Assembly: GCF_009914755.1 (NCBI RefSeq)
Contig: NC_060925.1
Source of the DNA: the human T2T-CHM13v2.0 reference genome, Homo sapiens
Strand: one strand, 5' to 3'
DNA: 64,000 bases
Shown: positions 31,422-35,500 of the stretch, piece by piece
Layout of the letters: every line of letters starts with the position of its first letter
Numbering within the stretch: position 1 is the first letter of the stretch
The notes under the pieces: model-generated
What the model saw: only the letters and a program-made list of their open reading frames with translations
What the model was told of the DNA's origin: nothing
The model's database searches: none
Position numbers and translations under genes: made by a program

Positions 31422-32493
31422 TAGTCCTAAAGTCATTATCTTATTTAATGGAAAAGCATTAGGGATGTTTCTACTAACATCAGAAGCAAGACATAAATAT
31501 CTATTATCTCTGCTGCTGTTAGAGATATTAGCCAGTGCAATTAGATAAGAGAAATCAGTGAAAGGCATAAGAGTGACTAAATGAGTGGTAAAACTATATT
31601 TGCAGATGATATAATAATGTATGTGGAAAATCCCAGAGAATCAATAATAAAACTAACTCAAACAATAAAATAATTTACTGAAGAACACGGATATAAAATT
31701 AACATAAAAATCAATAGCCTTCATACAAACAAACAGGGGACATAATGGTAGAGAAAACACCATTTAAATAGCATCAAAATATATGTATTTATGAATAAAT
31801 ATAAGTATTTATGAATAAATTTAATGAGGTATGAAAACCTATGCATGGAAAATGTCAAAACACTCCTAACAGACAGTAATAAAAACTTGAATAAAAGGAA
31901 AGACATTCCCAGGTTCTTGGATAGAATTATAGCTTTATGAAAATACCACTTCCCCCTAAGTTAATTTATAAATGTAATACAATTCCATCAAAATATGAAC
32001 AGGCTATTTTCTGGAGTTAGAGATTTTGATACTAAAGTTCATATAAAAAAAAAGATGGGTAGGAATGAGGTGGAAAACACTGAAAAAGAAAAGCTGTAGT
32101 GATTAGGCTTACCAGAAATTAAAACATTTGATAAAGCCTGGATAATTAAAACAGAGTGGTACTGGAGCACAGAGAAATAAAGAAGCCAGTGGAAGAGAAT
32201 AGTCCAGAATTAGACCAAAATACATATGGAAATTTAGTATATGACGAAAGTGGCATCTCAAATCACTAGGGTAAAACATACCATATAGCAGTATAAACTC
32301 CAAGTGGATTAGTGATGTAAATATAAAAACTAAAACCACATAGTATAGAAAATAAATGGCTACATTATTATTTAGCCTTGGTAAGAAAAAGCCTTTCTAA
32401 CTATGATTTAAAATCCAGCGGCAATTTTTTAAAAGATTAATAAATTTGACTGCATTTTTTTGTGTGATGAAAACCACCATAAACAAAATCAAA
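31422..32493 (+). mobile_element. Old L1M ORF2 (RT to C-terminal region) fragment
   Basis: tttgcagatgatata...gaaaatccc (FADD motif region) through aaaccaccataaacaaaatcaaa. Confidence 0.75.
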
Positions 32494-32560
32494 GAACTAT
32501 GATCATACCACTGCACTCCAGCCTGGAAGACGCAGTGAGACCCCATCTCTAAAAAAGTTT
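32494..32560 (+). mobile_element. Decapitated Alu 3' end (~65 bp)
   Basis: gaactatgatcataccactgcactccagcctgg...gtgagaccccatctctaaaaaa with no upstream Alu body. Confidence 0.8.
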
Positions 32561-32569
32561 TTTAAAAAA

Positions 32570-35500
32570 GAAAAATATCAGAATAAAAAGAGGATATCGC
32601 TGAAGTTATAGTTGTTTAACAAAAAAGAATATAGTATAAGAATTTAGATAATTTTACCACAATTTAAAAACTAGATAAAATAGACATGTGTATAAACAAA
32701 TATAACCTATAAAAACAGACCTCACTTTGGGAGGCCAAGGCAGGCGGATCACCTGAGATTGGGAGTTTGAGACCAGCCTGACCAACATGGAGAAACCCCG
32801 TCTCTACTAAAAATACAAAATTAGCTGGGCGTGGTGGCGCATGCCTGTGATCTTAGCTACTTGGGAGGCTGAGGCAGAAGAATTGCTTGAACTCGGGAGG
32901 CAGAGGTTGTGGTGAGCCGAGATCACGCCATTGCACTCCAGCCTGGGCCACAAGAGCAAAACTCCATCTTGGGAAAAAAAAAAAATCAGACCCAAGAACA
33001 TATAGAAAATCCACTTAGTTCTATTAATATAACCACTAGAGAAATGTAATCAATAGTAAAAAAAATCCTTAAAGAAATTCAGGTTCATAAATGTTTACTC
33101 GTAAGTTATACCAGACAATCAAGGATGAAAGAATACTAGTATTCCACAAATTCTTTCAGAGAAAAGACTAAGAGGGAACCCGTTCCAACCAGCATAAAGT
33201 TGATACCAAAATCCAACAATAATAGGAGAAAGAAAAATTGGATGCCAGTCTTTCTCCTGAACATAGTGAATTTTAGAAGATGGTTGGGTACAAAGTCATT
33301 ATACAAAATAAATGAATTGTAGCCAGGCGTGGTGGCTCACGCCTGTAATCCCAGCACTTTGGGAGGCTAAGGCAGGAGGATCACTTGAGGCCAGGAGTTC
33401 AAGACCAGCCTGGCCAACATGGTGAAACCCTGTCTCTACTAAAAATACAAAAATAGCCATGCATGGTGGCGCATATCTGTAATCCCACCTACTCAGGAGG
33501 TTGAGGCATGAGAATCGCTTGAACCTGGGAGCTGGAGGTTGCAGTGAGCCTGATCACACCACTGCATTTCAGCCTGGGTGACAAAGCGAGACTCTGTCAC
33601 AAACAAACAAACCCGAAATAAGTGAATTGTAAAAGATGATGGGGTACAAAATCAATACACAAAAATCAATTATATTTCTATATTCTTACAACAAATAGTG
33701 AAATTTTAAAAAGATACTATTTGTAATAGCATCAAAATATATAAAACCTAGAAATAAGCCTAATAAAAGATGAATAAAGTCTCTACATAGAAAACCAAAT
33801 AAATGCTATTGAGAGAAATTTAAAAGGACTTAAATAAGTGGAGATTTGCTCATGGATTGGAAATCTCAATATTGTAAAGATATTAATTCTCCTTCTGATA
33901 GACAGGCCCAAGATGGTCCTCAATAATCCCCACCTCTGGGGATTCCCAGCCTCGTGTAGTCTTCTCCCATATGATACCAGGGGCTGACCTGTGTGACCAC
34001 TGGCATATGGCAGAAAAGATGGCATGTCACTTCTGAGATTAAATGATGAAAGACTGTGGCTTCTATTCTTTTTTTATTTTTTTGAGACAGAGTCTCGCTC
34101 TGTCACCCAGGCTGGGGTGCAGTGTTGCCATCTCGGCTCACTGCAATCTCTGCTTCCCAGGTTCAAGCAATTCACTTGCCTCACCCTCCTGAGTAGCTAG
34201 GAATACAGGCACATGCCATCATGGCCGGCTAATTTTTGTATTTTTAGTAGAAATGGGGTTTCACTATGTTGGCCGGACTGGTCTCGAACTCCTGACCTTG
34301 TGATCCGCCTGCCTCAGCCTCCCACAGTGCTGGGATTACAGGTGTGAGCCACCGCGCCCGGCCTGTGGCTTCTATTCTTGTGCACTCTTTCTCTTAGATC
34401 TCTCATCCTAGGGGAAGTGAGCGAGCTGCCATGTTGAAAGCAGCTCTAGGGAGAGGCCCGCATAGTGAGGAACTGAAGCCTCCAGCCAACAGCCAGCAGG
34501 GAGCTAAGGCCTTTCCAGCAACCACATGAGTGAGTTTGGAGACAGAAAATCTAGCCCCAGTCATGCTTCGAGATGACTAGCGTCCTGGCTGACAACTTGA
34601 TTCCAGTCTCCTGAGAGACCCTGAGCCCAAACCACCTGGCCAAGGTGCTGCTCTTAAATCCTGATCCTCAGAAACTGCGCAGACAGTAAATGTCTGTTGT
34701 TTTAAGTTGCTAAGTTTTGGTTCATTTGTTACAGATCAACAAATAGCTAATATAGTCTGAAAATAATCTATAGATTCAATGTAATCCAAATCAAAATCCC
34801 AACAGGTTATTTTTCTTTTCTTTTTATTTTTTATTGAGGAACTTGACAAGCTGATTTCAAAATTGATATGTAAATGTAAAGGGCCAAGAATAGCTAAGAT
34901 ACTCCAGCAGAACAACAATATAAGAGGTTACTAAGTCTCAACATAAAGCTGGAATAATTGCTTGCTTTACCAGACATCAAACCTTACTCTAAGTAGGTAG
35001 TAATTAGGATGCTCTGATATTGGCACAAATTCAGTAATTAGAACATTATGATATCATAGAAAAGCTAGAACAGACCCATGCATAGATGAACTTGATTTAT
35101 TTCATAAACGGCCCTGCAGAGCAGTGGGGGAAAAGATGGCCTTTTAAGTAAAAACAGTATGAGACAATTTATACCCATTTGGAAAAAAAGAAAACTTGAC
35201 TTCTGCTCACATATGAAAGCAATTTCAGGCTTTAGGCAAGATGATTGCAGCAGCGTAGTTTGGTATCTCCCCAAATCTCCCCAGGAAATGCACAGATCTA
35301 CTAGGTTAACAGCAGCAAGAACACATGGCCACGATTTATAACAAAACTCAGTGAAAAGGTAACCCCTCAAATCCCAAAATACTAGTGGGTAGGACCAAAT
35401 TACTAACAGCTAGCAGATGGATGCGGTATCAGCCACTATAGAGGAAAAGCAGGAGGAAGGCAAAACAGCATCAGTCTCGAGAGCCCAAGAACCCAGAATC

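What the first reader, a model, noticed from the sequence alone, without database searches (positions are those of the whole stretch)
32470..32600. Base-level candidate for the chr16-to-chr1 duplication junction: L1 | decapitated Alu | different L1
Seen: an L1 ORF2 3' segment (...aaaccaccataaacaaaatcaaa) runs directly into the last ~65 bp of an Alu (gaactatgatcataccactgcactcc...) with no convincing TSD. After the Alu tail, the L1 sequence restarts at a much earlier ORF2 position (post-endonuclease linker: gaataaaaagaggatatc...ctagataaaatagac). The two sides are therefore different L1 copies. Inference: the duplicated HYDIN block begins at ~32494, cut inside an Alu with at most 1-3 bp of microhomology (NHEJ/MMBIR-like). 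This lies ~7 kb past the last exon, before the next HYDIN exon would be expected.
Basis: partly seen in the sequence, partly recalled or inferred. Interest (0 to 1): 0.8.

Follow-up and report, generated by a model that had tools for sequence, protein, structure and literature searches.

The report
Known HYDIN2 duplication junction, confirmed

Summary
The observation and its interpretation both hold, and the feature is already in print. Searching the window's own genome shows window 31000-32497 matching two chr1 paralogs (99% and 91%) and window 32494-34000 matching chr16:76622553-76624059 (99%). A four-way alignment puts the switch between 32496 and 32498. One base (C, 32497) is shared strictly; 3 of 4 bases are shared loosely (GAAC vs GAGC).

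On chr16 the break lies about 235 bases into a full-length Alu with intact 13-base target-site duplications. On the chr1 paralogs the old LINE runs on uninterrupted.

The chr1 sequence resumes 364,443 bases further on, at chr1:148266941, after 840 bases of target were lost. That second junction shares 3 bases (AGT).

The last copied HYDIN exon lies about 7 kb inside the block, and the last two coding exons stayed on chr16.

Dougherty et al. 2017 (PMC5345166) report the same event: 364 kbp, exons 6-84 of 86, an LTR/LINE boundary, loss of 841 bp of LINE, and a breakpoint alignment in Fig. 1b. Its main text never uses 'Alu' or 'microhomology', so those two details are the only small additions here. 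Interest is low.

The parts
5975..32497 (.). chr1 acceptor flank: an older chr1 segmental duplication (the paper's '3' exon block' side), with an inverted 99.4% paralog at chr1:146.6 Mb and an older copy at chr1:87.3 Mb
   Evidence: window 5975-25177 and 28084-32497 match chr1:146639952-146620777 and 146620735-146616322 (-) at 99.43% and 99.41%; 91% match to chr1:87299206-87300474. Paper section 5: 1p22.3 to 1q21.1 about 21 mya, and an inverted 1q21.1/1q21.2 pair.
31750..32497 (+). 3'-truncated old LINE remnant of chr1; its last ~840 bases were lost at the insertion
   Evidence: dispersed repeat; 43 of the 46 listed matches, all those besides self and the two paralogs, are at 66-79%; both paralogs continue past the break; 840 bases are missing. 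The paper reports loss of 841 bp of LINE.
32497..32497 (.). Junction base C, shared by the chr1 and chr16 templates (1-base microhomology; GAAC vs GAGC is 3 of 4)
   Evidence: four-way alignment: 32496 (A) is chr1-type, 32498 (T) is chr16-type.
32498..32569 (+). Last ~72 bases (body end plus A-rich tail) of a chr16 Alu; its first ~235 bases stayed on chr16
   Evidence: chr16 locus L002 carries the whole Alu (about 1269-1576); the window starts at L002 1504/1505.
32570..32582 (+). Surviving right copy of that Alu's 13-base target-site duplication
   Evidence: the same 13-mer lies at L002 1256-1268 and 1577-1589; only the right copy is present in the window.
32498..64000 (+). Start of the chr16-derived HYDIN2 block; it continues beyond the window to window coordinate 396,940
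   Evidence: four collinear blocks at 99.1-99.4% to chr16:76622553-76652307; the chr1 sequence resumes at chr1:148266941.
39453..39686 (-). Last HYDIN coding exon carried by the duplication (exon 84 in the paper's numbering); approximate bounds, splice sites not mapped
   Evidence: E 7.2e-36 to PDB 9ijj_4G 'Hydrocephalus-inducing protein', residues 4842-4919 of 5154. It lies outside the RefSeq HYDIN2 model, which per the hub table starts at 116385.

Best explanation
Window 32497/32498 is the proximal junction (the HYDIN 3' side) of the human-specific HYDIN2 segmental duplication.

A stretch of chr16q22.2 running from intron 84 of HYDIN up into the gene was copied and inserted into an old LINE. 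In this assembly the donor stretch is 357.2 kb on chr16 and 364.4 kb on chr1. The LINE lies inside an older chr1q21.1 duplication, about 32 kb from NBPF12. The donor gene stayed intact. At the target, 840 bases of LINE were lost. The joins are clean, with no inserted bases. They share 1 base (C) at this junction and 3 bases (AGT) at the far one.

Shown here: the two origins, the position of both joins, the target loss, the Alu at the donor break, and the exon content.

Inferred: the mechanism. A copy-and-paste outcome with two short-microhomology joins and no long homology fits best a replication-based double template switch (MMBIR/FoSTeS-like). In that model a broken chr1 end primes on chr16, copies about 357 kb, and switches back to chr1 840 bases further on. 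I put this at about 55%. End-joining of a free extra copy into a chr1 double-strand break gets about 35%.
For: -: the split match at query 1495-1498.
- the base-level switch, the full Alu on chr16, and the LINE continuing in both chr1 paralogs.
- the 1500 bases beyond the break in the empty paralog. Bases 1-840 are absent from the HYDIN2 locus; bases 841-1500 match chr1:148266941-148267600 at 100%.
- the far junction. chr16:76978298-76979800 matches at 100% up to L013 base 1503, and the chr1 paralog matches from base 1501, so AGT is shared.
- 31.5 kb of collinear 99.1-99.4% identity to chr16, and none left of 32494.
- the exon for Hydin residues 4842-4919 is inside the block; residues 4919-5000 and 4993-5153 are only on chr16, 1.37 kb and more beyond the break.
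- Dougherty 2017, PMC5345166 (passages; section 5 read whole): 364 kbp, 99.4% identity, exons 6-84 of 86, an LTR/LINE boundary, loss of 841 bp of LINE versus a chimpanzee BAC, an inverted 1q21.2 paralog and a 1p22.3 ancestral copy. All agree with my numbers.
Against: Nothing argues against the identification.

Against the mechanism:
- One base of microhomology is no more than chance gives, and it fits classical end-joining equally well.
- There are no templated insertions or added complexity, which MMBIR often leaves.
- The 840-base loss could have happened after the insertion.
- I could not see Fig. 1b of the paper (only its legend), nor its supplements, nor any ape sequence.
- The chr16 and chr1 copies differ in length by 7.2 kb. 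I explained only about 1.8 kb of that, within the window.
Confidence: 0.97

Rival explanations
1. The join seen today is secondary. The HYDIN block first landed with different ends, and a later deletion then removed the rest of the chr1 LINE together with the left part of the chr16 Alu, and perhaps more HYDIN sequence such as exon 85. That deletion would have created the present 32497/32498 join.
For: Deletions of this size with short microhomology have occurred in these very copies since the duplication. One is a 1675-base difference at window 43030-44704 with ATC shared at its edges. Another is a 2906-base difference at 25178-28083.
Against: It needs an extra event. The far junction resumes the chr1 target only 840 bases from where it left, as a single insertion with a small target loss would predict. 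The paper treats it as one event.
Confidence: 0.07
2. Homology-driven or retroelement-driven origin: Alu-Alu or L1-L1 non-allelic recombination, or L1-mediated retrotransposition or transduction, produced the join.
For: Repeats lie at both sides (an Alu on the donor side, a LINE on the acceptor side). From recall, Alus are enriched at duplication junctions (Bailey et al. 2003; not read here).
Against: The partners are of different classes and share 1 base. The L1-like sequence right of the Alu differs from the left LINE at the DNA level: a single 18-base match. There is no poly-A at a block end and no target-site duplication, and 840 bases were lost instead. The block carries introns and 357 kb of genomic DNA.
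Confidence: 0.01
3. Assembly artefact: a chimeric join of chr1 and chr16 reads in a highly duplicated region.
For: 1q21.1 was long misassembled (recalled; the paper also says the locus was hard to assemble).
Against: The two junctions, 364 kb apart, fit one another exactly around an 840-base target gap. Independent clone-based sequencing gave the same size, the same repeat context and 841 bp.
Confidence: 0.01

Closest known systems
HYDIN2 duplication breakpoints as published by Dougherty et al. 2017, Genome Biol 18:49 (PMC5345166)
   Same: The event, size (364 kbp), identity (99.4% vs my 99.1-99.4%), exon content (6-84 of 86), acceptor context (LINE next to LTR, NBPF nearby), target loss (841 vs my 840 bases), and the two other copies of the acceptor segment (1q21.2 inverted, 1p22.3 ancestral).
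   Different: Nothing substantive. The paper's main text does not mention that the donor 3' break lies in an Alu, and it does not mention microhomology (0 occurrences of each word). It says the chr16 site is 'flanked by unique sequence'. Its Fig. 1b alignment, which I could not see, may show the same bases. My coordinates are for T2T-CHM13.
Microhomology-mediated break-induced replication / fork stalling and template switching (MMBIR/FoSTeS) rearrangements
   Same: The copy is retained at the donor. There are two joins with 1-3 bases of microhomology, no long homology, and a small loss at the target.
   Different: There is no templated insertion or multi-segment complexity. 1 base at one join is below the usual 2-5 bases. 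The event is interchromosomal and 357 kb long. The mechanism is inferred, not shown.
Alu-associated segmental duplication junctions (Bailey, Liu and Eichler 2003; recalled, not read here)
   Same: One donor boundary falls inside an Alu.
   Different: The partner sequence is a LINE, not an Alu, so no Alu-Alu recombination is possible at this join.

Membership tests
HYDIN2 (chr16q22.2 to 1q21.1) segmental duplication, 3'-side junction | One side nearly identical to chr16 HYDIN, with identity ending at the junction | tested here: met
   99.1-99.4% over 32494-64000. In one search, no match of 400 bases or more at 95% or better to window sequence left of 32494.
HYDIN2 (chr16q22.2 to 1q21.1) segmental duplication, 3'-side junction | The other side continues uninterrupted at an empty acceptor site | tested here: met
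   the human paralogs at chr1:146.6 Mb (99%) and chr1:87.3 Mb (91-95%) run through the break. The chimpanzee site was not available to me; it is reported in the paper.
HYDIN2 (chr16q22.2 to 1q21.1) segmental duplication, 3'-side junction | Block of about 364 kb with a matching second junction and about 841 bases of LINE lost | tested here: met
   the chr1 sequence resumes at chr1:148266941, giving a 364,443-base block, with 840 bases (up to 844 if the shared bases are counted) missing from the target.
HYDIN2 (chr16q22.2 to 1q21.1) segmental duplication, 3'-side junction | Carries HYDIN exon 84 but not exons 85-86 | tested here: met
   residues 4842-4919 are inside the block. Residues 4919-5000 and 4993-5153 (the end of the protein) are on chr16 only. 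The exon numbers come from the paper, not from my own count.
Non-allelic homologous recombination junction | Tens to hundreds of bases of shared homology across the join | tested here: not met
   1 base is shared strictly, 3 of 4 loosely.
Retrotransposition / L1 transduction | Poly-A end, target-site duplication, processed or element-linked cargo | tested here: not met
   target deletion instead of duplication, no poly-A at either block end, and intron-bearing genomic cargo.
MMBIR/FoSTeS-type replicative rearrangement | Microhomology of 2 or more bases at the joins, donor retained, often templated insertions | tested here: inconclusive
   Donor retained. 3 bases at the far join but only 1 at this one. 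No insertions.

The most novel reading that the evidence does not exclude
The 2017 text treats the donor site as unremarkable unique sequence. At base level, however, the donor break sits inside an old Alu, both joins use 3 bases of microhomology or fewer, and there is no filler. This would make HYDIN2 a clean, fully resolved example of a two-switch replicative (MMBIR-like) origin for a 0.36-Mb interchromosomal, gene-creating duplication. In addition, the derived copy preserves 1.7 kb of intron sequence that the chr16 gene lacks in this assembly.
Probability: 0.3. Interest if true: 0.25.

Novelty: already known. Interest (0 to 1): 0.12.

Why it matters
HYDIN2 is one of the few human-specific duplicate genes, and it lies in the 1q21.1 region tied to micro- and macrocephaly. 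Its junctions define which exons it kept and which new flanking exons it can splice to. This junction was mapped in 2017, so re-finding it adds no new biology. Three things do come out of the work:
- A reader working from raw sequence alone can place a segmental-duplication breakpoint to within 3 bases.
- The junction coordinates are now given in T2T-CHM13 (chr1:147902497/8 and 148266940/1; donor chr16:76622556-76979800).
- The donor-side Alu and the 1- and 3-base microhomologies are stated explicitly. These are the facts any argument about mechanism must use.

Tried and rejected
- Whole-genome searches with 20-kb queries were swamped by dispersed repeats. 37 candidates were scored out of 90,976 and 56,196, and the true paralogs were mostly not scored. 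I instead fetched chr16 and chr1 stretches and ran blastn locally.
- I tried to confirm the L1 ORF2 positions of the two flanking repeats, without success. phmmer against PDB for window 32150-32266 and 33140-33319 gave 0 hits at E up to 10. Pfam on 8 ORF scraps gave 0 relevant families, with one chance hit at E 0.044. blastn of the left flank against the right flank gave a single 18-base match. The L1 sub-positions therefore rest on recall.
- Pfam on the exon-84 ORF found 0 families. The PDB sequence search then identified it.
I did not pursue this. That no further coding exon lies in the interval instead follows from the adjoining residue numbers: 4919 in the window exon and 4919 in the next chr16 exon.
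- Rejected readings: nested L1-into-L1 insertion (the two sides come from different chromosomes), a 5'-truncated Alu insertion (the Alu is full length at the donor), and NAHR, retrotransposition or artefact (see the rival explanations).

Full report
**What is in the sequence.** An A/T-rich old repeat ends at 32497. The last ~60 bases of an Alu body with its A-rich tail follow at once (32498-32569). Then comes a 13-base word (32570-32582), then other old repeat sequence, which is interrupted by a further Alu at 32718-32994.

**Two origins.** I searched the window's own genome with 31000-34000 (69 matches listed, 40 of 19,381 candidates scored). Only three long matches appeared besides the window itself:
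- chr16:76622553-76624059 (+), 99%, for query 1495-3001
- chr1:146616322-146617820 (-), 99%, for query 1-1498
- chr1:87299206-87300474 (-), 91%, for query 217-1498

Every other listed match was a short hit to one of the two full Alus right of the junction.

**Position of the switch.** A four-way MAFFT alignment shows the window following the two chr1 copies through 32496 and following chr16 from 32498. The C at 32497 is common to both. The four bases 32494-32497 read GAAC in the window and in both chr1 copies, but GAGC on chr16. This is why BLAST carried the chr16 match back to 32494.

**The donor side.** On chr16 the sequence left of the break is the rest of the same Alu. The element runs from about L002 1269 to 1576 and is flanked by a 13-base target-site duplication at L002 1256-1268 and 1577-1589. 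The break left about 235 bases of it behind.

Local blastn against 46 kb of fetched chr16 shows window 32494-64000 collinear with chr16:76622553-76652307. The match falls into four blocks of 99.38, 99.13, 99.13 and 99.15% identity. With my filters (95% identity or more, 400 bases or more) no window sequence left of 32494 matched. The fetched 46 kb includes the 10 kb of chr16 left of the break.

**The acceptor side and the second junction.** Both chr1 paralogs continue past the break with more of the same old repeat. I took the 1500 bases that follow the break in the 99% paralog and searched the genome (46 matches, 40 of 3,468 candidates scored).
- Bases 1-840 were found only in that paralog and, at 94%, at chr1:87.3 Mb.
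- Bases 841-1500 matched chr1:148266941-148267600 at 100%. They also matched many dispersed copies at 76-83% that start at about base 839-846, so a second repeat family begins there.

The region around chr1:148266941 matches chr16:76978298-76979800 at 100% up to locus base 1503. It matches the chr1 paralog at 100% from base 1501. The three shared bases are AGT.

The resulting numbers are:
- The inserted block is chr1:147902498-148266940, 364,443 bases.
- The donor is chr16:76622556-76979800, about 357.2 kb.
- The target lost 840 bases, or up to 844 if the shared bases are assigned to chr16.
- Neither join carries inserted bases.

**Gene content.** A stop-free frame at 39396-39689 (-) matches 'Hydrocephalus-inducing protein' (PDB 9ijj_4G, 5154 residues) at residues 4842-4919, E 7.2e-36. 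It also matches Chlamydomonas Hydin (7sqc_F0) at E 5e-5. Pfam gave nothing for this frame. The exon lies about 6.96 kb from the junction.

On chr16, left of the break, two frames match the residues that follow. L021 8361-8681 (-) covers residues 4919-5000 (E 8.6e-39). L021 6200-6700 (-) covers residues 4993-5153, the end of the protein (E 3e-86).

The residue numbers adjoin, so no coding exon lies between. The break is in the intron before the last two coding exons, about 1.37 kb from the next exon. The hub's gene table starts HYDIN2 at window coordinate 116385. About 84 kb of copied HYDIN sequence, including this exon, therefore lies outside the RefSeq model.

**What is in print.** Dougherty et al. 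2017 (PMC5345166; passages, section 5 read whole) describe:
- a 364-kbp duplication, 99.4% identical, carrying exons 6-84 of the 86-exon gene
- an origin about 3.2 million years ago
- a sequence alignment of both breakpoints in Fig. 1b (I saw the legend only)
- an acceptor segment with an inverted copy at 1q21.2 (99.6%) and an ancestral copy at 1p22.3 (about 21 million years old)

These are the two paralogs I found. All my numbers agree with the paper's.

The paper's main text has 0 occurrences of 'Alu' and of 'microhomology', and no paper in the library holds both 'HYDIN2' and 'microhomology'. The supplements were not examined.

**Mechanism (inferred).**
- Long-homology recombination is excluded. 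The partners are an Alu and a LINE and share one base.
- Retrotransposition is excluded by the genomic, intron-bearing cargo, the lack of poly-A and the target deletion.
- What remains is a microhomology-level join at both ends of a copy whose donor stayed intact.
- I favour a replicative double template switch (MMBIR/FoSTeS-like) at about 55%. Insertion of a free extra copy by end-joining gets about 35%. A later trimming deletion cannot be excluded (about 7%).
- One base of microhomology carries no weight on its own.

**What failed.** Tool-based placement of the two flanking repeats within L1 ORF2 failed. That the left repeat is a dispersed old element is shown: 43 of the 46 listed matches, all those besides the window itself and its two paralogs, are at 66-79%. 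The right flank has only 2 weak matches besides the window itself and chr16.

**Verdict.** The feature is real and already known. Interest is low.

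Noticed in passing
window 43030-44704: 1675 bases of old interspersed-repeat sequence are present in the HYDIN2 copy but absent from the chr16 donor in this assembly. The chr16 flanks abut directly and share ATC at the edges. Given the content and the lack of insertion hallmarks, this is most simply a deletion in chr16 HYDIN after the duplication, or a polymorphism of this genome.
   Followed up: partly
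window 25178-28083: 2906 bases in the chr1 flank are absent from the 99.4% inverted paralog at chr1:146620735-146620777. The edges share 2-3 bases. I did not check against the 1p22.3 copy, so it could be an insertion or a deletion.
   Followed up: partly
window 5959-5975 vs chr1:146639952-146649222: The inverted 1q21.2 paralog holds about 9.3 kb that the window lacks at this point. Its content was not examined.
   Followed up: no
window 40045-40164: About 120 extra bases relative to chr16, inside a purine-rich simple repeat just beside the exon-84 homolog. Probably a length change of the repeat array.
   Followed up: no
window 32498-64000 and on to 116385: The RefSeq HYDIN2 model in the hub table starts at 116385, yet copied HYDIN sequence with at least one intact-looking exon (39453-39686, minus strand) reaches to 32498. 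The distal exons of the copy are unannotated in this assembly.
   Followed up: partly
L013 1501-2200 (chr1:148266941-148267640): The chr1 sequence that resumes after the HYDIN block begins, within 3 bases, at the edge of a dispersed repeat family with many 76-83% copies genome-wide. This fits the LTR named in the 2017 paper.
   Followed up: partly
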